From the IMG/VR virus record IMGVR_UViG_3300028988_000038: DNA of 14,054 nucleotides; one strand, given 5' to 3'. Below the pieces are notes generated by a model that saw nothing but the letters and a program-made list of their open reading frames with translations, ran no database searches and was not told the origin of the DNA. The DNA comes from a virus. Its lineage: Duplodnaviria; Heunggongvirae; Uroviricota; Caudoviricetes. The position numbers were made by a program, and so were the translations under genes. Positions 1,580 to 14,018 of the stretch are shown here, piece after piece. Position 1 is the stretch's first letter; each line of letters begins with the position of its first letter.

Positions 1580-1696
1580 GTGTTTCTCCTTGTTGTGATT
1601 TGGCCGATGGCGCTATGCGCGTTGGGCTTTCGTTCATTCGTGGCTCTTTCGAGCTGTTAAATGATAGATCAGTACTTACTTATTATCTATCAAAAA

Positions 1697-2254: not shown

Positions 2255-3424
2255 TCACGTCTTAATAGTTTCTGCTACGTCGGCTAATATCGCTTCTAGT
2301 CGTTCTCCCTCTTCAGGTCTGAAGTAAAGAATGTTGGGGTTAAACCCGTAAAAGACAGTAACGTCAAGGTCTGGAAGATACTCCTTCCTGCCGACCAAAT
2401 CGGATGGCTTGTTTTTGTTGTTAAACAATGAAGTTGCCCGGCTGCCACACGTCAGCACATAGGTCGGACGCACCAGATTGATCTCTTCACGCATAAAGTC
2501 GGTGAACTGGCCGATCTCGTCTTTGGTGTAGTCTTTTTCTTTGTCTTTAACCTTCTTGCAAACACCTGTGACATAGAGATCGCCCATGCGTAAATCTCCA
2601 GCCGTCAATAGCTTGGCCTTAAAGTCGTCGTATCCGTTCTCCATAAAGTAACCGGTTCGAGCATCATTGCCGTTCGCATTGTCCAGAATGATCATGATTT
2701 TCGGCTTAATACCAATGCTGGGGCGGATTAGTTCATCACCTAAGCCCATTTCAGCCGCCATCCGCGTCATGAGTACGTTAATTTCAGCCGAACGTTTGGG
2801 GTTCATCTCAAACGGACGTGAGGCTTTAACTGCGTCTATGACAAGGTTTCCCATCAATTCAGCCTGGTCGCGTAGGCGCTCTGGATCAGTTGCTGGCAGA
2901 CTGCCTGGCTCGATGGATGCAAACGCCCCTACTTTTTGCAGCGATTCGCGCACTCGACTATTACAGGCACGTTTCTCGACAGCTTCTTCGAATTGCGCCA
3001 GTGACTCGAATTTGCCGCCAACTTTTTCTCGCGCTCTCATGATGGCTTGGCAGCCATTCTCAGAACACCCCTTCACAGCAGAGAAGGGCGCATACAGCAC
3101 CTGGCTGCCATCTTCAAGCGTGCGGATCTCGATTCGGTTAGATGACACGTTAACGTCTGGTGGCAATACGCGAATGCCATAGGTCAGCGCATCTTTAACC
3201 AGCCCCTGGTGTTTATCTTCGCCAAGAATAGTGAGAGCAGCAGCGAAAAACTCTGCGGGATAATGAGTTTTCAACCACATAGATTGATAACTGATTAAGG
3301 AGTAAGCAACAGAGTGTGATTTGTTGAAGGCATACGCGCCGGATTTCTCAAACATATTCCAGATTTCTTCGGCTCGTTCGTGCGTCAGGCCATTGCTCTC
3401 TTCGACAACACCGGTAATTTTCAT
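2255..3424 (-). CDS. dnaE: DNA polymerase III alpha (DnaE family), C-terminal fragment with a degenerate UDG-like C-terminal domain
   Basis: [35 protein letters not shown] matches the DnaE motif [40 protein letters not shown] matches GLKILPPDIN. QAELMG (2849-2866) sits where the internal beta-clamp motif QADMF lies. Residues about 241-389 (2258-2704) follow a family-4 UDG pattern with altered catalytic motifs. Own SD GAGGTG (3430-3435) and ATG at 3422-3424. Confidence 0.8.
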   Translation of the reverse strand: [389 protein letters not shown]

Positions 3425-4155
3425 GCAGTCACCTCATCAATCTTCACGAACTCATACCCATTGGAGGCCAGCCAGTTCCGTTGGCGCTCCCAGCTCCATA
3501 TCTCTTCACGCATTTCACTATGCAGGCGAATGTGGGCGTCTTCTGGAAGTGCTACAAGATTCCCAGGGGCGTTATCTATCGTATCGCGGTTAATATGGTG
3601 GACATGTTCATCGTCACGTAGCTCCCGACCGAGACGTTCTTTCGCTATCAATCGATGAACGTATTCGTATTGCGAAACGCCATTGTTACCAACCAGCTGC
3701 ATCATGTAGCCGTTGGTTTTTACGATGATGCCACCTTTGTAGTTGTTCGCTTCTTCTCCGATCTTTCCGCGTTTGGCAGCCGCCAGCTTTTCCTTCGTCT
3801 CCGCGCGGATTGTTCTGCCGGTTAGCTTTTTCGAAACGGTGGCCACTCGCTCATCGATATCAGCACGCAGACCGGCATTCCACGAGGTTTTCCCATACAT
3901 AGGGTTGCCAGTGCCAGTCCGGGCTTCGGAGAGACGCTTCATACGTTCGTCATTATTTTTGTTTTTGCCACGATTCCAGGCTGGGGTAGCGGAGATCCGC
4001 GCGCTTCCGCGCCTGATCCCCCATTTGGCTAATAAGCGGTCAATATTTGCCTTGCTGCAACCAGCTTCGGCGGCAATGTCTTCTTTTCTCATCAGGTCAA
4101 CCATGTAACGCTGACGTAACCATTCTTCTGTGATTTTGTACTTCGTACTCGGCAT
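3421..4155 (-). CDS. HNH homing endonuclease with N-terminal HTH and NUMOD-like repeats
   Basis: C-terminal HNH motif EHVHHINRDTIDNAPGNLVALPEDAHIRLH. GNPMYGKTSWNAGL and basic repeats resemble the NUMOD-type DNA-binding modules of phage homing endonucleases. N-terminal HTH-like segment DIAAEAGCSKANIDRLLAKWGI. Sits between the two DnaE fragments; its stop overlaps the DnaE-C start (ATGA at 3421-3424). Confidence 0.8.
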   Translation of the reverse strand: MPSTKYKITEEWLRQRYMVDLMRKEDIAAEAGCSKANIDRLLAKWGIRRGSARISATPAWNRGKNKNNDERMKRLSEARTGTGNPMYGKTSWNAGLRADIDERVATVSKKLTGRTIRAETKEKLAAAKRGKIGEEANNYKGGIIVKTNGYMMQLVGNNGVSQYEYVHRLIAKERLGRELRDDEHVHHINRDTIDNAPGNLVALPEDAHIRLHSEMREEIWSWERQRNWLASNGYEFVKIDEVTA

Positions 4156-4203
4156 TTCTAAGACTCACTAAACAAATTGTTTTCTTATCTTATAAATTAA
4201 TTC

Positions 4204-6567
4204 TCAAATATCGAAGCTCGTTATGTCGGCATTTATTGCCATTGCTTCGGCATAAGTGCGACGCTCACCATCAGCACAAAGTAGGCGTGCTGCTTTATGG
4301 ATTTTTCTCGTAGAACCATCATCCAGTGACACTGTCACCCAGCCTTCCTCCGCTCGCTTAATGAAGTCGCCGCCAATGGATTTCATTTTCTCCATATCTT
4401 TTTTCCCGATCGCTTTCCTGACCGAGTCTGCTTCCGCCATTGAGAACCCCGCCAAGATTCGCGTAGCAGCCATGATCTGTTCCTGATAAATCAGAACTCC
4501 GTTTGTGTCGCGAGAGATGTCGTCCAGCATTGGGTGTAAGGAATGTGGGGCCATGAAGCCTTTGGCCACGGACACATAATCGTCCAACATGCCGGATTGA
4601 ATCGGGCCAGGTCGGAAGAGCGCAGTTGTAGCGACGACCGTTTTAAAGCTCATTGGCTCAATTCCACCACCTAAATCTTTAAGCAGCTTGCGCATTGGGC
4701 CTGATTCAAGCTGGAATACGCCCTGTGTATACCCTGCAGCAAAACCATCCAGCACCTTGCGATCTTCAAGAGAAATGGCATCAAGATTGATATCTTCACC
4801 TGTGTTCTCTTTTATGTAGCGTTTTGCACTATCGAGCAAATCGAGAGTTGCCAGGCCAAGCACGTCCAGCTTAATTAGGCCCATAGCCTCGCAGTAACGC
4901 TTGTCAAATGCGATACAACGCGCGTCACCACGGCGTTCAACCGGTGTACGTTCTGTCAGAGGAACACCTGCTACGATCATCCCTGCCGCATGTCTACCAA
5001 AGCCACGCATAAGGCTTTGTAACTTGCAGGCTGCATTGAATGCATCAGGATATTTTGTTGCGTATTTGTCGAGACTTGCCAGTTGTTCGCGCAGCTCTTC
5101 CAATGGAAGGCTATCATCCTCGACGTTCTTCAGTTCTTTTGATACCGCCATATCTGCGGACTCCACACCATAAATACGAGCGGTGTCACGTAGTGCAGAG
5201 GCTGCGCCCAGGTAGGTGAAGTTCGGAATGCCTGCAACGTAATCTTCGCCGTAGCGTTCATTCAGATACTCGATCACCTCATGGCGACGTGCCTGGCTGA
5301 AGTCCAAGTCCGCATCCGGCAAGTCGAGACGCTCAGGGTTGATGAAACGCTCAAACAGAAGACCGTGACGGATTGGGTCGACGTTGGTTATGCCTATGCA
5401 CCACGCCACCAGAGAACCGGCAGAGGAACCACGACCAGGCCCGACAGGAATGCCAGTTTCACGGCTGTGATTCATCAGATCGCGTACCATCAGGAAGTAA
5501 CCACAAAATCCCAGGCGAGTAAGCGTGTCCATTTCGTACTTAAGTCGCTCAACATAAACCCTGTTCTCAGAAGCAGGTGGTGTGTATCCAAACTCTTTTG
5601 TGGTAAGACGTTTACGCAGCCCTGCAACAGCCAGTTTCATCAGCGTTGCAGGTTCGTCGTCTGCCATCTTGGGCAGTGCTGGTGGCAATTCATGCCAGCG
5701 CCATGTGCAGGCATCGATAATGGAGTCCTGCGTTGTTGAGGCCATTGCAGCTGTTACCGGCACATCCATGCGAACGGAGAAGGCTTTAAGCGCCTCAAGG
5801 AGATGGCGACGACCATTGATGGCGTTATCTCGCTGGTGGGGGATACGCAGACGATGCGGCTGGTCGATTTTTATGTTGTTCGTAACCATGTGCGCAATGT
5901 CTTTAATGTCTGCATCGTCGATCGATTCGTAATAAGCGGGATAGAACGCTACTGGCTCTATTTTCAGTGCGCTGGCGACTTTCATCGCCCGGACGTTAAT
6001 CTGGTCGTAGAATGGGGTAGGGTGCGGATAAACCACACTATAGAAGTTGTCTTTTCCACCCGCTGTAATCAGTGTGCTTATGATTTTTGCAAAATCGTTG
6101 CGTTGGAACACGCTACCGATGTCGGAAGTAAGCAGGATGATGTTGCCTTTGGCATATGTAGAAACCAACTGTTCGAGCGAGAGACGCGGTACAAAGTAGA
6201 ACTGTTCTCGTGTGTTGGCCGCCGTCATTAGTTCGCAGATGTCGCGATATCCTTTCTCATTTTTAATTAGAGCGGTAAACGAGTAGTTACGTCCTCGCTC
6301 TAATGATTCCATACATCTCATAGATTCTTTAGCAAGTTTAGCCCGGTGCTCGTATGTGGGATCATCAACAATGTTTAGTTTCACACCACAAATAACCGCC
6401 ATGTCGTCACCAGCGGCACGTTGTAGTGGAATAACGCTCGCAATATTCATGCTATCTGCTGAAATTACAGCGGTGTAGCCAGCTTCTCTGGCAATCTTCA
6501 CCGCGTTTTCTGCTTTTAGAGCCGACTCCCCAAGTGAGAAGTCAGTTCGAACCATCAGTGCCTTCAT
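4204..6567 (-). CDS. dnaE: DNA polymerase III alpha (DnaE family), N-terminal fragment (PHP-like, palm/thumb and part of fingers)
   Basis: [68 protein letters not shown] matches the DnaE active-site region GYFLIV...[18 protein letters not shown]...[35 protein letters not shown] and [30 protein letters not shown] also match. The ORF ends with a 45-aa tail (4207-4341) that has no DnaE homology. Confidence 0.85.
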   Translation of the reverse strand: [787 protein letters not shown]

Positions 6568-7983: not shown

Positions 7984-8078
7984 GCGTTTTTCCTTTGTTC
8001 TCTAATGAGCGTTCAACTTCTTATATAAATATATCATTATATATCGTAAGTGGTTACTTATCGTTAAGGCTGTTTTGT

Positions 8079-10187
8079 TCACTTTAAAATGATACGAGAT
8101 AGTTCAGTAACTACAGATGAACCAAGACTATCAACGCTCGTTACCAGGGCATGATTTGAGTAAAATCTCTCCGGTGCGTCAGTCATGATGCCAATTGCCA
8201 TCAAATCAATATCAGTCTGCGTTTCAATTTGCTTCGCAACTGAACGCAAATGAGCGTCAAAACCTCTCCCAACAGCCCACGGCGCGCCATCACTCAGAAC
8301 AAGCATGATCTTCCTGTCCTCCATGCGACCGGAAAATAACGATGCAAGGCTGGCTATGCTTTCACCATCCACGTTATTAAGAAGTGGGAATGTGTAGCCT
8401 ACGCACCCCATACGTGAGCGAACTTCGCGAGAATTTACCTTTTCATTCCAATTTTTGATGATAGGTAGCATTAAAGATTCAAAGCGAGAGAACTCATACT
8501 TGACAGCCTTAAGTTCTCCTGCCGCCATATGACTACCAAATGTAGTGAAGCCGGTGATAATGTTGGGAACATTTATTCGATCAAGGGCATCGGCGATGGT
8601 ATATGCACTTGCAAGAGCCAGTTTAATCGTTATACCACTCATTGAACCTGATAAATCAATCACTTGTTGAACACAGGCGTTAACGGCTTTAGATTCTTCT
8701 TTTTTACGAAACACGCGAGCATCATTCATTGCTAATCTGTAGATACTAGAACCATGAATGCGCCCCCGACGCTGGCCCGGTATAAACTGAACTCTGTTTC
8801 TGCTTGCTATTGCTCGCTCCAGGTCTTTTGCCAGCGTCGACGAAACACCTGACGAAAGATGCTTTTCAATATATTTGTCGAAGAGCTGGTTGCCTTCAGG
8901 AACGATGCGATAGCGGCTGATTGGATATCCTCCCAAATCAATATCGGAGAATGTTTTAATAAGCCGTTTGATATGGGCTTCTGCCTGATCAATCGAGCCG
9001 ATGAAGTCGTATGAGCGATTGTATGGCCTGTATTCGCTTTTCGAGCTTTCTGTTAACTCGCTTTTAATCGTTTCGGATAGAGCATCTTCTGTCATGCCTC
9101 CGACTTCATCTTCTATGCTATCCAGCTCCTCTAAAGCCTCTTCCAGACTCATTTTTGACGGAGTTGGGATATCTGAAGAGCCATCTTCTGTCGTTTTTCT
9201 TTTTTCGTGGTCAGCGGTTAATGATTCTGACGCCGCGTTATCAGAAGCATCAGAATCTGATACCTCTTTATCATTTTCTGTATCATCGAATATTGTTTCT
9301 GATGATTCAGAATTATCTGAATCATCACTGTCGCTATTATCATGTTTGTACTTACTATGTGATTCTGATTTGATAGATTTGTGATTATCTAACACTGAGG
9401 GTGTCTCATGATCTTCGTTGTCTTCATTGTTTTCTCCAGAGGCATCCGTCTGGTCAGCGTCTGAAGGATCGGAAGTTTTTCCCGGAGCTGACTCCTTACC
9501 TTTGCTTTCACTTTCAGTGTCTTTGAGGATCTTAGCTATGGTCGCAGCCACCTTTACACAATCCTCGGTGCAAGACATGTTACGCACGGCCACATCGATA
9601 CCATGTTCTTTTAATAATGAAATTGGTTTCTCAATGACAGGCCAATGTTCATCCATGAAATCTACGAACGGTGCTTGGCCATCCCAGGCTCTTACAACCG
9701 GACAGAGAAAGAAGTTTAGAAAAAGCGCGCGCTGATCTTTGCCACAATAAGCAATAGCCTCTGAAGCCTTTGGTTTAAAGACTTTTTCGATTATAAGGCG
9801 CTGAGTTGCCATCAGATTACGTCTTGTTCCGTTAAAGACCTGACCCATTTTTCGCTCGATGAACACGTCTTCTAAGGCATTCCATAGCGACCAGGAAGGA
9901 ACGCGTCCTTTTTCTCTCATTTTGTTGGACACACGAATATCGGTAAACAAAATGTGAGCAACCTCATGATCGAGAAATCCGCGCACAGCATTCATCAATG
10001 CCGGTGTTGCGTTATCCGGGATTGATGGGATGTTTACGAAAATTGGCTCTCCATCATCGTTATAGCGTACATAAGCGTCGTCCCCTCGTTCTGCAACAGG
10101 GATGTTTTTACCTGAAAGGAGAGCGACTACTCGTTTTACACTGTCACGGAAGTCCTGAACCTCTTTGATGGAACGTTTTTTAGACAT
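8079..10187 (-). CDS. CobT-like protein with a C-terminal von Willebrand factor A domain
   Basis: MIDAS motif DLSGSMSG (8634-8657) and LVLSDGAP in the C-terminal vWA-type domain. Long Ser/Asp/Glu-rich acidic linker (about 9048-9515). N-terminal domain contains HEVAH (9954-9968). Sits immediately upstream of the CobS-like ATPase, as in CobS/CobT pairs. Confidence 0.7.
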   Translation of the reverse strand: MSKKRSIKEVQDFRDSVKRVVALLSGKNIPVAERGDDAYVRYNDDGEPIFVNIPSIPDNATPALMNAVRGFLDHEVAHILFTDIRVSNKMREKGRVPSWSLWNALEDVFIERKMGQVFNGTRRNLMATQRLIIEKVFKPKASEAIAYCGKDQRALFLNFFLCPVVRAWDGQAPFVDFMDEHWPVIEKPISLLKEHGIDVAVRNMSCTEDCVKVAATIAKILKDTESESKGKESAPGKTSDPSDADQTDASGENNEDNEDHETPSVLDNHKSIKSESHSKYKHDNSDSDDSDNSESSETIFDDTENDKEVSDSDASDNAASESLTADHEKRKTTEDGSSDIPTPSKMSLEEALEELDSIEDEVGGMTEDALSETIKSELTESSKSEYRPYNRSYDFIGSIDQAEAHIKRLIKTFSDIDLGGYPISRYRIVPEGNQLFDKYIEKHLSSGVSSTLAKDLERAIASRNRVQFIPGQRRGRIHGSSIYRLAMNDARVFRKKEESKAVNACVQQVIDLSGSMSGITIKLALASAYTIADALDRINVPNIITGFTTFGSHMAAGELKAVKYEFSRFESLMLPIIKNWNEKVNSREVRSRMGCVGYTFPLLNNVDGESIASLASLFSGRMEDRKIMLVLSDGAPWAVGRGFDAHLRSVAKQIETQTDIDLMAIGIMTDAPERFYSNHALVTSVDSLGSSVVTELSRIILK

Positions 10188-10285
10188 GGCTAATCCTTTG
10201 TTATGAAAACAAATTATTTACTAGTGTGTTTAATGTAGCACTGCGCGAACAGGGAACTAAGCCATTCGCGCAGGGAGAAGAGGGG

Positions 10286-10498
10286 TTAACAGATTCTGAC
10301 GGCTAAAGACCCGGAGCCGATATTGAGAAGCGTGAAGCGTTTGTTGTTAAGTTCGAATATAAAGCCAGTTGTGTCATTCACACCAACCTGAATCTGCTCA
10401 TTCGGTAGATCGGTGAGGATGTCAGCTACACACTCATCAGCTAATTTCTGTACGTGTCCGATCTCAAGAGCGATTAGGCTGGAAATAGTGGTGTTCAT
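10286..10498 (-). CDS. Hypothetical small protein (70 aa), first ORF of the leftward operon
   Basis: ORF immediately downstream of the divergent regulatory region and co-oriented with the operon; only a weak SD; no recognisable motif. Confidence 0.35.
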   Translation of the reverse strand: MNTTISSLIALEIGHVQKLADECVADILTDLPNEQIQVGVNDTTGFIFELNNKRFTLLNIGSGSLAVRIC

Positions 10499-10681
10499 TC
10501 AATCAATCCATTCTAACTTATACTATTACTATGGTAAGGAATACTACTAAAATTTATATCAATACTGAATACATTCATATCATATGCAAGTTAATTTTCT
10601 TACCTGTTTTGGGCTAATTTTTCTCCGTGCAATGGCCTTTAACCGGTCTTTTAAGTGCCTATCGAAAAAAATGATAATAGC

Positions 10682-10709
10682 TTTACAACCCTAACCTTTG
10701 ATGTAATAT
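10682..10709 (+). promoter_or_regulatory. Candidate sigma70-type promoter for the XRE regulator gene
   Basis: -35 TTTACA (10682-10687), 16-nt spacer, -10 TAATAT (10704-10709) preceded by TG. SD AAAGG at 10743-10747 and ATG at 10756. Confidence 0.4.
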
Positions 10710-10710
10710 C

Positions 10711-10724
10711 GGTAAGCACTTACC
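10711..10724. promoter_or_regulatory. Candidate operator: 14-bp palindrome GGTAAGCACTTACC
   Basis: Perfect 6-bp inverted repeat with a 2-bp spacer directly downstream of the candidate -10, overlapping the expected transcription start. Matching half-sites GGTAAG (10533-10538) and CTTACC (10599-10604) occur in the same intergenic region. Confidence 0.4.
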
Positions 10725-10755
10725 AGAGAGAATTGAACGCGCAAAGGTTGTAACA

Positions 10756-11142
10756 ATGTCTGACAACAAGATTGAATTTATAGAAAGTCGCTATGCTGCT
10801 TTTATCGCAGGGCTGATTGAATCCTCACCTATGAGTCAGGCCCAAATAGCCAGACTTATTGGTTATAAAAATGCCAACAACCTTTCTTTAATTAAAAGTG
10901 GCAAAATTCCTTTGCCTATCGATAAGGTTCGTCCGTTGGCGCTGGCGCTGGGTATTGAGCCAAGTCGTCTTATGATGATGGTGCTGGAAGAACGCCAACC
11001 TGAACTCGCAGCATTTTTATACAAAGAAGGCACCGCTCCTCTTAACGAGGACGAAAAACAGGTTCTTGCTGCATATAACGAGCGATTCGGTAAAGAGAAA
11101 GGCGCATCACAAAAGGTTGTTGAGGCCATAAAGTCTCTATGA
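10756..11142 (+). CDS. XRE-family helix-turn-helix transcriptional regulator (phage repressor/Cro-like)
   Basis: HTH signature MSQAQIARLIGYKNANNLSLIKSGK. Divergent from the replication operon across a 257-bp AT-rich control region; its 3' end overlaps the integrase 3' end by 6 nt. Confidence 0.6.
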   Translation: MSDNKIEFIESRYAAFIAGLIESSPMSQAQIARLIGYKNANNLSLIKSGKIPLPIDKVRPLALALGIEPSRLMMMVLEERQPELAAFLYKEGTAPLNEDEKQVLAAYNERFGKEKGASQKVVEAIKSL

Positions 11143-12240
11143 AAAATTTACACGAATAAGCTCTGTTGATAGACGATCTCCCTTGAATTTGTGGTCAATT
11201 TCGTCTAAATCCGGTTGCTCTACGATTGATGCGATGTACGTCGAGAAACTTTCTAAGGCGTCTCGCATCTCGTCCATATAATCGTGCCGGTCGTAGACTC
11301 GATCTATCCCCTCAAGACTGTGGTTCATGATTTTGCGTGATACCTCCTGGCTTATGCCTAATGCTGGGAAGTAACTACGCGCAGTGCGGCGCAAGTCTCG
11401 GGGTGTAAATGGCTCAAGCTCCATCAGTTCTGGTCGTTCCAGAATACGACGTAATGCCTGGGCTATTGCCACTTTAGACATAGGAAGGTCTTTCCCGATT
11501 TTTTTATTCGAAGGCACGAGCCACTGGCTGCCTTTACCGTATTCGAACAACTCTTCAATGCATGTGCGCATTAATGAGCTTAAAGGCAGAGAATGCTCAC
11601 GGGCAGATTTGTTCCTCTTGCCTTGATTCCAAACCCCACGCTTAAGATTGAACTCACTTTTTTTAGCCCGCAGTACTTCGTCAGGTCGTCTTGCGGATAC
11701 AAGACATAGCCTGGCCGCCCATTTTGTACCAGCACACACATTGAAGTAGTCCCATATATTCCAGAACACCCATACCTCTGCGTCGGTTAGCTTCCGCTCG
11801 CGAGGTGTGGGCTTTGCGCCACCGGCAACTTTGTTAAGTGACATATCGTTTAACGGTGACACGTCGATCATCCCCTGGAAGGCGCACCAGCTGAGGAACT
11901 GCTTCATCAGAGAGAAAACGCGGCGACCCATAACAATTTTGCCATCCAGTATTAGTGGGTTGACCAGTTGGTTCACCATGAACCTATTAATATCACTTAC
12001 TTTTACATCGGCAATGTGCGGCAAAACATGTATCAAAATACAATGAACAGCGATCTCTGGCCGACGTCTTGTTATCAGCAGAGATAAGCGAGTGAATAAC
12101 ATGAATGCGTCCGAGAATCTCATGTCATTGCTGACCTGGGAGATCATAACGGCCTGCATTTGAGATGCTCTTTCGAGATACTCAATCGCCTCTTTTGAGG
12201 TGTTCTCCGCAGCGCGTGCTCTGTCAAAGCTATTTTTCAT
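11137..12240 (-). CDS. int: Tyrosine recombinase / phage integrase
   Basis: C-terminal catalytic-domain pattern: an ARRPDEVL segment aligning with the box I Arg region, PRDLRRT aligning with box II, and NHSLEGIDRVYDRHDY with the candidate catalytic Tyr. 367 aa. Confidence 0.75.
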   Translation of the reverse strand: MKNSFDRARAAENTSKEAIEYLERASQMQAVMISQVSNDMRFSDAFMLFTRLSLLITRRRPEIAVHCILIHVLPHIADVKVSDINRFMVNQLVNPLILDGKIVMGRRVFSLMKQFLSWCAFQGMIDVSPLNDMSLNKVAGGAKPTPRERKLTDAEVWVFWNIWDYFNVCAGTKWAARLCLVSARRPDEVLRAKKSEFNLKRGVWNQGKRNKSAREHSLPLSSLMRTCIEELFEYGKGSQWLVPSNKKIGKDLPMSKVAIAQALRRILERPELMELEPFTPRDLRRTARSYFPALGISQEVSRKIMNHSLEGIDRVYDRHDYMDEMRDALESFSTYIASIVEQPDLDEIDHKFKGDRLSTELIRVNFS

Positions 12241-12285
12241 ATGACAATCACCGAGTTACGCCGATGCACTGTATAAGTAAACAGT

Positions 12286-12314
12286 ATATTAGGCATAGAT
12301 TCTTATAGGATCAA
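12286..12314 (-). promoter_or_regulatory. Candidate sigma70-type promoter for the integrase gene
   Basis: On the minus strand: -35 TTGATC (12309-12314), 17-nt spacer, -10 TAATAT (12286-12291), about 45 nt upstream of the integrase ATG (12238-12240). Confidence 0.35.
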
Positions 12315-12338
12315 GAGTAAAAGTAACTCATTTTCAGT

Positions 12339-12371
12339 AATGATTCCATACATAGTAGGTATGGAATCATT
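12339..12371. repeat. 13-bp perfect palindrome (AATGATTCCATAC / GTATGGAATCATT) with a 7-nt loop
   Basis: Arms at 12339-12351 and 12359-12371, followed on the plus strand by GTAGGCC and a T6 run (12379-12384). Upstream of the integrase promoter. Confidence 0.5.
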
Positions 12372-12490
12372 GTAGGCCTTTTTTATAAAATCTGTGATTC
12401 TTCTCAGGATAAATTATCTAAACTAAAAATTGTGTTTTGTGTTGGCATCTGCTTGAATAGACGCATGTTTATTCAGATATGGAATAATCA

Positions 12491-14018
<1,528 letters not shown>

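What the first reader, a model, noticed from the sequence alone, without database searches (positions are those of the whole stretch)
10499..10755. Divergent control region with a palindromic operator candidate and short direct repeats
The 257-bp AT-rich region between the leftward operon and the XRE gene contains a 14-bp perfect palindrome GGTAAGCACTTACC (10711-10724) just downstream of the candidate XRE promoter -10, plus isolated half-sites GGTAAG (10533-10538) and CTTACC (10599-10604). It also has repeated TACTAT/AATACT motifs (10521-10532, 10540-10545, 10561-10566), the two AATACT copies 21 bp apart. This layout is what one expects for a repressor-controlled switch between the regulator and the replication operon. 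The repeats could alternatively be iteron-like origin elements.
Basis: seen in the sequence. Interest (0 to 1): 0.4.

Follow-up and report, generated by a model that had tools for sequence, protein, structure and literature searches.

The report
Repressor-gene operator of SSU5-type phage-plasmids
The near-palindrome sits across the start of a small repressor gene in an SSU5/pHCM2-type phage-plasmid and is the local copy of about 35 similar 22-bp palindromes spread between the phage's genes, which points to one regulator silencing the whole phage; the short direct repeats are what chance gives.

Summary
The window is a piece of an SSU5/pHCM2/pMT1-type phage-plasmid. GGTAAGCACTTACC is a 6+2+6 inverted repeat, not a perfect 14-mer palindrome. 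The TACTAT/AATACT repeats occur at chance level. The two isolated half-sites are already lost in a 90%-identical relative.

What holds up is the promoter of the XRE gene (TTTACA-16-TAATAT). Its -10 is invariant in nine lineages that otherwise share only 41-78% of the spacer. The inverted repeat lies directly after it, across the predicted transcription start, and 12 of its 14 columns are invariant.

This repeat is the core of a dispersed 22-bp palindrome, GATAAGTAAGT|ACTTACTTATC. A complete relative has 39 copies, 35 of them intergenic. 25 of 28 mappable copies recur at the same place in a Klebsiella relative.

My best reading (confidence 0.55) is that the 128-aa XRE protein autoregulates here and silences the phage through the dispersed sites, as P1 C1 and mycobacteriophage L5 repressors do. 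Binding was not tested.

No conserved leftward promoter or shared operator was found, and the iteron reading is rejected. A conserved LexA-boxed promoter upstream of the convergent integrase gene probably supplies the SOS input.

The parts
10682..10687 (+). -35 hexamer TTTACA of the XRE-gene promoter (P_xre)
   Evidence: Consensus scan, 9/12 with the -10. The same promoter is found at the same position in pHCM2, K. pneumoniae and E. coli JH51 orthologues. CTTTACAA is invariant in alignment A1.
10704..10709 (+). -10 hexamer TAATAT of P_xre (16-bp spacer)
   Evidence: All 6 columns are invariant in 9 lineages. The start site is inferred at about 10716; it has not been mapped.
10711..10724 (.). 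Operator core O1, GGTAAG-CA-CTTACC (6+2+6 inverted repeat), spanning about -5 to +9 of P_xre; the 22-bp family register is 10707-10728
   Evidence: 12 of 14 columns are invariant in 9 lineages. It is a perfect palindrome in Klebsiella, where it equals the central 14 bp of the best dispersed sites. The 12-bp core matches the family consensus at 11 of 12 positions, but the outer arms are missing, so it scores only 3.0 bits on the 22-bp matrix.
10669..10690 (.). Degenerate second site over the -35 (AAATGATAATAGCTTTACAACC)
   Evidence: In pHCM2, pMT1, Enterobacter and Citrobacter the same place reads AATAGATAAGTCTTTACAACCC or GATAGATAAGTCTTTACAACCC, which is a complete family left arm (8.6-8.8 bits). 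It is degraded in the window lineage (-0.5 bits).
10655..10668 (.). Semi-conserved GTGCCTATCGAAA block upstream of P_xre; function unknown
   Evidence: TGCCT is kept in most lineages. The repeat finder paired it loosely with O1 (I1, 79%).
10540..10586 (.). Conserved left block (invariant TATC at 10578-10581; ATATCA at 10556 and 10577, 21 bp apart); candidate leftward promoter or regulatory site, unexplained
   Evidence: 34% invariant columns against 0% in the middle of the spacer. It holds no family site, no LexA box and no conserved canonical promoter.
10533..10538 (+). Isolated GGTAAG half-site; lineage-specific, probably not functional
   Evidence: It reads GGTAGG in Shigella and is unrelated in the other lineages. 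It overlaps a minus-strand promoter-like match (TTACCA-16-TAGAAT) found only in this lineage.
10599..10604 (-). Isolated CTTACC half-site; lineage-specific
   Evidence: It reads GTTACA in Shigella and lies in the unalignable middle of the spacer.
10521..10532 (+). TACTAT tandem duplication; chance or slippage, not conserved
   Evidence: 6-bp indel in Shigella. The count of repeated 6-mers equals that of shuffles.
10756..11142 (+). xre: 128-aa XRE/Cro-C1-type HTH protein, the candidate prophage repressor
   Evidence: HTH_19 and HTH_37 below cut-off. phrog_8 transcriptional regulator, E 7e-12. The AF2 model aligns to C.AhdI, 434 Cro and P22 c2 at 1.5-1.9 A over 61-63 residues. It equals CYRAN_45, which is expressed 10x above prophage background in lysogens. 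The recognition helix is nearly invariant.
10286..10498 (-). 70-aa gene of unknown function, divergent from xre
   Evidence: phrog_2627. Orthologues occur in all lineages at 26-83% identity. Its RNA rises about 90-fold in macrophages at 6 h, in parallel with int. The AF2 model is unusable (pLDDT 42).
10241..10273 (-). Strong hairpin after the 70-aa gene, separating it from the CobT-like gene
   Evidence: Fold z-score -2.8. In Cyrano the RNA falls from log2 10.8 to 5.9 across this gap. The hairpin position is kept in SSU5.
1663..1684 (.). Family palindrome GATAGATCAGTACTTACTTATT upstream of the gp32-like SSB gene
   Evidence: 24.9 bits. An orthologous site is present in Klebsiella.
8041..8062 (.). 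Family palindrome in the CobT/CobS gap, directly followed on the minus strand by TATAAT (8041..8036)
   Evidence: 14.0 bits. Sequence context. A site also lies in the same gap in Klebsiella (13966) and in the distant lineage L017 (7065).
9372..9393 (.). Family palindrome inside the CobT-like gene
   Evidence: 15.9 bits. Klebsiella has a 26.3-bit site at the projected position, and SSU5 also has one inside CobT.
12269..12314 (-). P_int (-35 TTGATC 12314..12309, -10 TAATAT 12291..12286) with a LexA box CTGTATAAGTAAACAG (12269-12284), 29 nt upstream of the integrase ATG; the probable SOS input
   Evidence: The promoter and a CTG-N10-CAG box are present in all 9 lineages. int converges on xre and their 3' ends overlap by 6 bp.

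Best explanation
The 257-bp spacer carries the sigma-70 promoter of the xre gene (-35 at 10682-10687, -10 at 10704-10709). Across the predicted start site lies an operator, GGTAAG-CA-CTTACC (10711-10724). This operator is a core-only member of a family of about 35 dispersed 22-bp palindromes (GATAAGTAAGT|ACTTACTTATC) that sit in the intergenic gaps of SSU5/pHCM2/pMT1/pKpn-type phage-plasmids.

Most likely the 128-aa XRE-type helix-turn-helix protein binds these palindromes as a dimer. At its own promoter the site is weak: the outer arms are replaced by the -10 on one side and by CAGAG on the other. Binding there would give negative autoregulation when the protein is abundant. At the dispersed, stronger sites it would shut promoters and block read-through, keeping the replication, nucleotide-metabolism, head and tail genes silent while the element lives as a plasmid.

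The protein has no self-cleavage domain. The SOS signal probably enters through the LexA-boxed promoter of the convergent integrase gene, whose transcripts must run antisense through xre.

Shown: motif positions, conservation, the dispersed family and its intergenic bias, positional orthology, the HTH fold, and expression of xre in lysogens.
Inferred: the transcription start, which protein binds, the direction of regulation, and the SOS route.
For: - The window is an SSU5-type phage-plasmid.
- P_xre and the operator form a phylogenetic footprint. The -10 is 100% invariant and the core 86% invariant, against 0% in the middle of the spacer and 23-30% in the flanking coding DNA. Overall spacer identity is only 41-78%.
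- The family was seen independently of the finding. GATAAGTA (11 intergenic, 1 coding) and GATAGGTA (8 intergenic, 4 coding) are among the most intergenic-enriched 8-mers, although intergenic DNA is only 12.4% of the plasmid.
- The iterated matrix finds 39 sites, 35 of them intergenic, against 7.7 (2.9 intergenic) for column-permuted controls. It finds 35 sites in a Klebsiella relative.
- 25 of 28 mappable sites have a Klebsiella site at the projected position, where chance would give 11.6%.
- In Klebsiella the P_xre site has the same 14-bp core as the best dispersed sites.
- In the complete relative, 8 of the 10 matches to GTAAGNNCTTAC with at most one mismatch are intergenic.
- The two arms deviate independently: 106 one-sided changes and 12 compensatory, against 15.4 compensatory expected. 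This fits half-site recognition by a protein dimer.
- XRE has a Cro/C1-type HTH fold and a nearly invariant recognition helix. Its homologues are confined to these elements.
- It is expressed 10x above prophage background in LF82(Cyrano) lysogens, whereas the ParB-like genes are silent there.
- SSU5 lacks xre but keeps the palindromes, as a repressor-deleted derivative would.
- Genes behind stronger palindromes are less induced in macrophages at 6 h (Spearman -0.46, p 0.027, n 23; exploratory).
- Cyrano is induced 39-fold by ciprofloxacin, and a LexA box is conserved at P_int.
Against: - No binding data exist. The identity of the binding protein rests on association only.
- In the window lineage the operator scores only 3.0 bits on the 22-bp family matrix, because it lacks the best-conserved outer GATA/TATC positions.
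- In the most distant lineage examined (L017) there is no palindrome at +1 of P_xre. Family-like sites sit elsewhere in the spacer, and the family consensus is unchanged although four residues of the recognition-helix region differ.
- A 6-bp-arm inverted repeat is not statistically unusual in this AT-rich region.
- Genes behind palindromes are not significantly more silent in lysogens than other phage genes (p 0.13), because nearly everything is silent.
- Strandedness of the RNA-seq is not stated in the passages I searched, and the macrophage condition differs from LB in much more than SOS.
- No operator was found for the leftward 70-aa gene.
Confidence: 0.55

Rival explanations
1. The palindromes, including the one at P_xre, are bound by a different phage-plasmid protein made in the lytic phase, such as a late or middle activator or a Cro-like global regulator. 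At P_xre that factor would switch the repressor gene off. Elsewhere it would switch lytic promoters on or modulate them. XRE would then act at other, unidentified sites.
For: - Several palindromes sit roughly at -35 to -12 of promoter-like -10 elements, for example window 8062..8041 followed by TATAAT. From my own knowledge, P1 late promoters are described as carrying a palindrome centred near -22 that is used by the activator Lpa.
- In Cyrano, RNA steps up directly behind three palindromes in macrophages at 6 h (CYRAN_12, 56, 60).
- SSU5 grows without xre and still keeps the sites.
- The family consensus stays the same in a lineage whose XRE recognition-helix region differs.
- Small candidate DNA-binding genes exist (CYRAN_37, 62, 123).
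Against: - The correlation between site strength and induction is negative, not positive.
- Many sites lie 1-17 bp from the next start codon, or inside a gene, leaving no room for a promoter.
- The sites precede early and late genes alike.
- No -10 element lies at a fixed distance on the gene side only.
- The one regulator known to be expressed in the lysogen and encoded next to a conserved core site is XRE.
Confidence: 0.22
2. One reading: a lambda-like bidirectional switch. XRE binds the palindrome together with the GGTAAG/CTTACC half-sites and the AATACT/TACTAT repeats, and so sets the balance between its own promoter and a divergent promoter for the leftward replication operon.
For: - xre and the 70-aa gene are divergent and 257 bp apart.
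- Half-sites are enriched in this spacer.
- A minus-strand promoter-like match overlaps the half-site at 10533.
- A conserved block exists on the left side.
Against: - The half-sites and that promoter match are absent from the 90%-identical lineage and from all others.
- The direct repeats are at chance level.
- The operator is 213 bp from the leftward start codon, and the DNA in between is unalignable.
- A hairpin and a roughly 30-fold RNA drop separate the 70-aa gene from the replication genes.
- XRE has no S24 domain.
Confidence: 0.08
3. The palindromes act as RNA hairpins in the 5' leader of xre and between cistrons, for example as processing, stability or translational-control elements, rather than as DNA sites.
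For: - The consensus can fold into a 9-bp stem with a GUAC loop.
- Many copies lie just upstream of ribosome-binding sites.
Against: - The arms vary independently. Compensatory changes are no more frequent than chance (12 against 15.4 expected, and 10 against 9.3), whereas one-sided changes are common (106 and 66).
- The sequence itself, not just the pairing, is conserved across about 35 copies.
- Nothing in the window reaches the Rfam gathering scores.
Confidence: 0.05
4. The repeats in the spacer are iterons of a replication origin.
For: The region is AT-rich and next to replication genes. Two pairs of hexamers lie 21 bp apart.
Against: - Repeated 6-mers are at chance level.
- No repeat unit of iteron length was found.
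- The RepB-family initiator gene is 24 kb away in the complete relative.
- The repeats are not conserved as repeats.
- SSU5 lacks the whole region.
Confidence: 0.02

Closest known systems
Autoregulated Cro/C1 (XRE)-type phage repressors and R-M controller proteins (lambda/434/P22 CI at OR3; C.AhdI, C.BclI)
   Same: - A small HTH protein of the same fold. The best structural matches are C.AhdI, C.BclI, 434 Cro and P22 c2.
- A two-fold symmetric site lies on the protein's own promoter, placed so as to block RNA polymerase.
   Different: - No C-terminal S24 self-cleavage domain.
- One core site plus a degenerate one, rather than a tripartite operator.
- No back-to-back lytic promoter shares the site.
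- Most of the sites are scattered across 100 kb.
Phage-plasmid P1 C1 repressor with many dispersed operators (from my own knowledge of the P1 literature; not checked here)
   Same: - A plasmid prophage whose lytic functions sit in many separate operons.
- Each operon is guarded by a copy of one operator motif spread around the genome.
   Different: - As I recall, P1 operators are asymmetric 17-mers and C1 is an unrelated 283-aa protein.
- The sites here are 22-bp palindromes and the candidate binder is a 128-aa XRE protein.
Mycobacteriophage L5/cluster A repressor with 'stoperators' (PMC9283540)
   Same: - More than 20 sites, found both at promoters and in short intergenic gaps inside operons.
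- The xre-less phage SSU5 that keeps its sites parallels, from my own knowledge, D29 relative to L5.
   Different: - L5 sites are 13-bp, asymmetric and orientation-dependent, and are bound by a monomer with two DNA-binding domains.
- The sites here are symmetric, with no domain beyond the HTH plus helices.
- A block to elongation has not been shown.
LexA-controlled induction modules of repressors that are not cleaved (coliphage 186 Tum, N15 anti-repressor, Salmonella SPC32H Rep/Ant, GIL01)
   Same: - A repressor without a peptidase domain, an SOS-inducible prophage, and a LexA box near the immunity region.
- N15 and GIL01 are cited as phage-plasmid examples in PMC11652158. The SPC32H repressor structure 5d4z is among the fold hits.
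   Different: - The LexA-boxed promoter here drives the tyrosine-recombinase gene, which converges on the repressor gene.
- No anti-repressor has been identified. The 70-aa gene is only a candidate.
22-bp intergenic repeats of T1-like phages (Stevie, T1; PMC4319613)
   Same: About 16-20 copies of a 22-bp, mainly intergenic repeat in an enterobacterial siphovirus, of unknown role.
   Different: Those repeats are asymmetric, co-oriented with transcription, have a different sequence, and occur in strictly lytic phages.
RK2 KorB (ParB family) global operators (from my own knowledge)
   Same: A palindromic operator present in a dozen dispersed copies that coordinates plasmid gene expression. ParB-like genes are present in these phage-plasmids.
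   Different: The ParB-like genes are silent in the lysogen, and the motif is unrelated to known parS or OB sites.

Membership tests
XRE/Cro-C1 HTH repressor with an autoregulatory operator | The protein has the five-helix Cro/C1-type HTH domain | tested here: met
   Pfam HTH_19 and HTH_37 match only below the curated cut-offs. phrog_8 matches at E 7e-12. The AF2 model (pLDDT 85-88 over residues 11-80) superposes on C.AhdI, 434 Cro and P22 c2 at 1.5-1.9 A, TM 0.78-0.80 normalised to the target.
XRE/Cro-C1 HTH repressor with an autoregulatory operator | A two-fold symmetric site overlaps the protein's own promoter or start site | tested here: met
   The 6+2+6 inverted repeat begins 2 bp after the invariant -10 and is conserved in 9 lineages. 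The start site is inferred, not mapped.
XRE/Cro-C1 HTH repressor with an autoregulatory operator | The protein binds that site and lowers transcription | not testable with these tools
   This needs EMSA or footprinting and reporter assays.
Lambda-type bidirectional immunity switch | Divergent lysogenic and lytic promoters share a set of adjacent operators | tested here: not met
   Only P_xre is conserved. The operator is 213 bp from the leftward start codon, and the leftward half-sites are not conserved.
Lambda-type bidirectional immunity switch | The repressor carries a RecA-stimulated S24 self-cleavage domain | tested here: not met
   The protein is 128 aa, has no Peptidase_S24 hit, and its C-terminal half is helical.
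Dispersed-operator or 'stoperator' prophage silencing (P1 C1, L5 gp71) | More than 15-20 copies of one motif spread over the genome, concentrated in intergenic DNA | tested here: met
   39 sites, 35 of them intergenic, in pM160133_p3, where intergenic DNA is 12.4%. 35 sites in the Klebsiella relative. 25 of 28 are positionally conserved.
Dispersed-operator or 'stoperator' prophage silencing (P1 C1, L5 gp71) | An asymmetric site whose orientation follows the direction of transcription | tested here: not met
   The consensus is a 22-bp palindrome. TAnnnT-like ends occur equally on both sides.
Dispersed-operator or 'stoperator' prophage silencing (P1 C1, L5 gp71) | The prophage repressor occupies the sites and blocks initiation or elongation | not testable with these tools
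   Only indirect support is available: xre is expressed in lysogens, the ParB-like genes are silent, and site strength correlates negatively with induction.
Iteron-type plasmid origin | Three or more direct repeats of about 17-22 bp in helical register, next to the initiator gene | tested here: not met
   There are no such repeats. Hexamer repeats are at chance level. repB is 24 kb away.
LexA (SOS) regulon promoter | A CTGT-N8-ACAG box overlaps the -10/+1 of a promoter and is conserved among relatives | tested here: met
   CTGTATAAGTAAACAG lies at 12269-12284, directly after TAATAT. A CTG-N10-CAG box occupies the same place in all 9 lineages. LexA binding itself was not tested.

The most novel reading that the evidence does not exclude
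SSU5-family phage-plasmids, a large group that includes pHCM2 of S. Typhi, pMT1 of Y. pestis and carbapenemase-carrying Klebsiella elements, are held in the plasmid state by one small XRE repressor. It acts through about 35 dispersed palindromic sites that serve both as operators and as roadblocks. Induction does not work by repressor cleavage. Instead, a LexA-controlled promoter fires through the recombinase gene, runs antisense across the repressor gene, and continues into a 70-aa gene that may encode an anti-repressor.
Probability: 0.25. Interest if true: 0.7.

Novelty: new variant of a known kind. Interest (0 to 1): 0.5.

Why it matters
The review of phage-plasmid regulation I read (PMC11652158) gives switch mechanisms for VP882, the arbitrium elements, GIL01 and N15, but none for the SSU5 group. 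My full-text searches found no description of an SSU5 operator or of this motif. These elements are common in E. coli, Klebsiella, Salmonella, Enterobacter and Yersinia: 793 plasmid records matched here. Some carry resistance genes.

This analysis yields a concrete and cheap-to-test map:
- a candidate master repressor;
- its autoregulatory site;
- about 35 candidate targets;
- a conserved SOS-controlled promoter facing the repressor gene.

If confirmed, it would explain how antibiotics such as ciprofloxacin trigger the spread of these elements. It would also provide an enterobacterial counterpart, with symmetric sites, to the P1 and mycobacteriophage L5 style of genome-wide silencing. Taken alone, the finding as first written (a palindrome after a repressor-gene promoter) is ordinary.

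Tried and rejected
- Iteron/origin reading. Rejected: hexamer repeats are at chance level, there are no long direct repeats, and repB is 24 kb away.
- Half-sites 10533 and 10599 as auxiliary operators. Rejected as conserved features.
- The minus-strand promoter TTACCA-16-TAGAAT. It is lineage-specific.
- A LexA box inside the spacer. None was found.
- RNA-hairpin reading of the palindromes. Rejected because the arms vary independently. Nothing in the window reached the Rfam gathering scores.
- ParB-like proteins as the binder in the lysogen. Unlikely, because the genes are silent in the lysogen.
- The second GGTAAG cluster at 13150-13403. It lies inside an IS3-family transposase gene and is unrelated to the phage.
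- PDB sequence search with XRE. No hit.
- Word-based homologue search. It returned only SSU5-type orthologues. The profile search shows a large family of about 130-aa proteins but carries no annotation.
- AF2 model of the 70-aa protein. Unusable (pLDDT 42), so no fold search was run.
- Covariation test in a distant lineage (L017). Uninformative: the motif is unchanged and the layout of P_xre differs.
- Test of whether genes behind palindromes are more silent in lysogens. Not significant, because nearly all phage genes are silent.
- The SSU5 genome and biocontrol papers. They are not held in the library, so SSU5's lifestyle is taken only from its record (its annotated host) and from how PMC7969092 describes it.
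- The terminator-like hairpin inside xre on the minus strand (10900-10916). Looked at briefly and not resolved.
Full report
**What the window is.** The 1-kb stretch around the finding matches 218 complete E. coli genomes at 90-99% identity, always on plasmids of about 105-120 kb. It also matches the phages Cyrano, CMS-2020a and PhiR41_1 and 793 plasmid records from Klebsiella, Escherichia, Enterobacter, Yersinia (pMT1), Salmonella (pHCM2), Citrobacter and Cronobacter. The window is therefore part of an SSU5-type phage-plasmid.

The gene order, right to left on the minus strand, is:
- tyrosine recombinase 'int', 12240..11137;
- xre on the plus strand, 10756-11142;
- a 70-aa ORF, 10498..10286;
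- a CobT-like gene;
- an AAA_5 (CobS-like) gene;
- a DnaE gene interrupted by an HNH endonuclease gene;
- a UvsY-like gene;
- a gp32-like SSB gene.

The order CobT - 70 aa - spacer - xre - int is kept in every lineage I fetched.

**Checking the observation.** The 14-mer GGTAAGCACTTACC is a 6+2+6 inverted repeat. Its centre CA is not self-complementary, and only the Klebsiella orthologues have the perfect GGTAAGTACTTACC. Within the 257-bp, 33% G+C spacer such a repeat is not unusual: 39% of dinucleotide shuffles contain one. Repeated hexamers number 14 against 13.0 +/- 3.7 in shuffles, so the TACTAT/AATACT repeats are what chance gives. The TACTAT duplication also carries a 6-bp indel in a close relative. 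The hexamer GGTAAG/CTTACC is enriched: 4 in 257 bp against 0.15-0.22 expected, and 12 in the window against 3.6. But the two isolated copies read GGTAGG and GTTACA in the 90%-identical Shigella lineage and are unrecognisable elsewhere. Four further window copies lie inside an IS3-family transposase gene.

**What is conserved.** I aligned nine orthologous spacers whose overall identity to the window ranges from 78% down to 41%. The alignment gives a sharp footprint:
- the -10 hexamer TAATAT (10704-10709) is invariant;
- 12 of the 14 columns of the inverted repeat are invariant;
- CTTTACAA, which includes the -35 TTTACA, is invariant;
- the middle of the spacer (10587-10654) has no invariant column and many indels;
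- the flanking coding DNA has 23-30% invariant columns.

The same TTTACA-16-TAATAT promoter is found at the same position in pHCM2, K. pneumoniae and E. coli JH51. With the -10 at 10704-10709, the start site should be near 10716. The repeat would then cover about -5 to +9, a position from which a bound protein blocks the promoter. This placement is inferred; no start site has been mapped.

A second conserved block lies on the left side (10540-10586, 34% invariant columns, invariant TATC at 10578-10581). It contains no recognisable operator, LexA box or conserved canonical promoter, and it remains unexplained.

**The repeat belongs to a dispersed family.**
- Eight of the ten matches to GTAAGNNCTTAC with at most one mismatch fall in intergenic DNA, which is only 12.4% of the plasmid.
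- Independently of that seed, GATAAGTA (11 intergenic, 1 coding) and GATAGGTA (8 intergenic, 4 coding) are among the most intergenic-enriched 8-mers.
- Aligning the sites gives a 22-bp palindrome, GATAAGTAAGT|ACTTACTTATC.
- An iterated matrix finds 39 sites, 35 of them intergenic, against 7.7 (2.9 intergenic) for column-permuted controls.
- A K. pneumoniae relative has 35 sites, many of them near-perfect, such as AATAGGTAAGTACTTACCTATT. There the P_xre site, TATCGGTAAGTACTTACCATAC, has exactly the 14-bp core of the best dispersed sites.
- 25 of 28 mappable E. coli sites have a Klebsiella site at the projected orthologous position, usually within a few bp, although the flanks are only 66-94% identical. 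Chance would give 11.6%.

The sites precede replication, recombination, nucleotide-metabolism, lysis, head and tail genes alike. Three lie in the window: 1663-1684, 8041-8062 and 9372-9393.

The two arms deviate from consensus independently. There are 106 one-sided changes and 12 compensatory ones where 15.4 are expected, and 66 and 10 (9.3 expected) in Klebsiella. This fits half-site recognition by a protein dimer and argues against selection for an RNA hairpin.

The site at P_xre has the family core (11 of 12 positions). Its outer arms are replaced by the -10 on one side and by CAGAG on the other, so in this lineage it scores only 3.0 bits (10-12 bits in JH51 and Klebsiella). It would therefore be a weak site. 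In the pHCM2, pMT1, Enterobacter and Citrobacter lineages a full family left arm (AATAGATAAGT) also overlaps the -35. In the window this arm is degraded.

**Which protein binds.** This is not shown. I favour XRE for five reasons.
- It has the Cro/C1 HTH fold that typically reads such dyads. The model superposes on C.AhdI, 434 Cro and P22 c2 at 1.5-1.9 A. Its recognition helix is nearly invariant across lineages, as is the motif.
- Its homologues are confined to these elements.
- Its Cyrano orthologue CYRAN_45, annotated 'putative repressor', is expressed 10-fold above the prophage background in lysogens. The ParB-like genes that could otherwise be suspected are at background there.
- Phage SSU5 itself has no xre. 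Its homology to pHCM2 stops in the CobT/70-aa gap, so the 70-aa gene, the spacer, xre and int are all missing, yet the palindromes remain. That is what a repressor-deleted derivative would look like.
- In the published LF82 transcriptomes, genes behind stronger palindromes are less induced in macrophages at 6 h (Spearman -0.46, p 0.027, n 23). A repressor predicts that direction and an activator does not.

That last test is post hoc and weak. I found no statement of the libraries' strandedness, and the conditions differ in many ways.

Against XRE as the binder: in a more distant lineage (L017) there is no palindrome at +1 of P_xre, and family-like sites lie elsewhere in the spacer. The family consensus there is unchanged although four residues of the recognition-helix region differ. 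A lytic-phase factor that uses the palindromes, in the way P1 Lpa is said to use a palindrome near -22, is not excluded. Three palindromes do coincide with points where RNA steps up in macrophages.

**The 'switch'.**
- The divergent gene is a conserved 70-aa ORF of unknown function.
- It is followed by a strong hairpin at 10241-10273 (z -2.8).
- In Cyrano, RNA falls from log2 10.8 to 5.9 between this gene and the CobT-like gene.
- The module of 70-aa gene, xre and int is absent from SSU5, so it is dispensable for building a phage.

The likely induction input lies on the other side of xre. Twenty-nine nucleotides upstream of the int start codon there is a canonical LexA box, CTGTATAAGTAAACAG (12269-12284). 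It directly follows a TTGATC-17-TAATAT promoter, and both are conserved in all nine lineages. int and xre converge and their 3' ends overlap by 6 bp. Transcripts from this promoter must therefore run antisense through xre. Whether they continue into the spacer and the 70-aa gene is not known.

The expression data are consistent with this. Cyrano is induced 39-fold by ciprofloxacin. In macrophages, where SOS becomes manifest only at 6 h (PMC6855411), the changes between 1 h and 6 h are: int log2 8.9 to 10.3, the 70-aa gene 8.7 to 10.8, and xre 10.3 to 9.9. This is correlation only.

**Comparison with known systems.** The local feature is an ordinary member of a well-known kind: an XRE-type regulator with a dyad operator on its own promoter. 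The wider arrangement resembles three known systems:
- the dispersed operators of the phage-plasmid P1 (from my own knowledge);
- the operators and 'stoperators' of mycobacteriophage L5, which has more than 20 asymmetric, orientation-dependent 13-mers bound by a two-domain monomer (PMC9283540);
- the unexplained 22-bp intergenic repeats of T1-like phages (PMC4319613).

It differs from all three in that the sites are symmetric 22-mers and the candidate binder is a small XRE protein. It does not pass the tests for a lambda-type bidirectional switch, because there are no shared operators and no S24 domain. It does not pass the tests for an iteron origin either. I found no paper in the held library that describes the motif or an SSU5 operator. 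The library is limited, so this is not proof of novelty.

**Verdict.** The palindrome is a real, strongly conserved control site on the repressor-gene promoter. The half-sites and direct repeats are noise. The iteron alternative is wrong. The main addition is the genome-wide palindrome family and the LexA-boxed convergent promoter. Together they give a testable model for how SSU5-type phage-plasmids stay silent and how they are induced. Confidence in the full model, with XRE as the binder, is about 0.55.

Noticed in passing
window 12269-12314 (minus strand): A canonical LexA box, CTGTATAAGTAAACAG, directly follows a TTGATC-17-TAATAT promoter 29 nt upstream of the integrase start codon. Both are conserved in all 9 lineages. 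The gene converges on xre with a 6-bp overlap of the 3' ends.
   Followed up: partly
window 12338-12372: A lox-like recombinase core site upstream of int. The 13-bp inverted arms AATGATTCCATAC/GTATGGAATCATT are invariant in 10 lineages. The central spacer (7 bp in most lineages) differs between lineages (atagtag, ctaaaga, ttaatag, cttacaa...). This suggests a Cre/lox-type dimer-resolution site.
   Followed up: partly
L021 (Salmonella phage SSU5, NC_018843.1 42525-42761): The type phage SSU5 lacks the 70-aa gene, the spacer, xre, int and neighbouring genes. tRNA-Asn is followed after 165 bp by the CobT-like gene, and homology to pHCM2 ends in the CobT/70-aa gap. SSU5 still carries the family palindromes.
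   Followed up: yes
window 12835-13653 (minus strand): An IS3-family transposase ORF (phrog_157, E 2e-119) lies in a block of 55-57% G+C. It holds the second cluster of GGTAAG hexamers (13150-13403), which is therefore unrelated to the phage motif.
   Followed up: partly
window 10241-10273 (minus strand): A strong GC-rich hairpin without a U-run lies just after the 70-aa gene. In Cyrano, RNA drops about 30-fold between this gene and the CobT-like gene. The hairpin position is kept in SSU5.
   Followed up: partly
window 2255-6567 (minus strand): The DnaE (Pol III alpha) gene is split into two ORFs (4204-6567 and 2255-3424) by a free-standing HNH/NUMOD3 homing-endonuclease gene (3421-4155). In Cyrano the polymerase is annotated as one 3.5-kb gene.
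   Followed up: no
L010 about 39090-39150; L011 about 23240-23300 and 47400-47460 (pM160133_p3 39110, 73260, 97422): Three copies of a longer inverted repeat of about 55 bp, CCTGCTTCTGTATATA...TATATACGGAAGCAGG, surround a family-like core. Copies also lie at the orthologous places in the Klebsiella relative. Function unknown.
   Followed up: no
L011 28912-29436 (pM160133_p3 78912-79436): The phage-plasmid encodes a FljA-like 'repressor of phase-1 flagellin' (PF03614, E 1.5e-84). This is a probable lysogenic-conversion gene.
   Followed up: no
window 10900-10916 (minus strand, inside xre): A terminator-like hairpin plus T-run lies on the strand antisense to xre, within the codons for the conserved SGKIPLP motif. 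Other lineages can form a different small hairpin at the same place. It could limit read-through from int.
   Followed up: partly
Cyrano CYRAN_43 (orthologue of the ORF near window 12491-12838, plus strand): The gene just beyond the int promoter region is by far the most highly expressed Cyrano gene in lysogens, 723x above background. It has no Pfam or PHROG match here.
   Followed up: no
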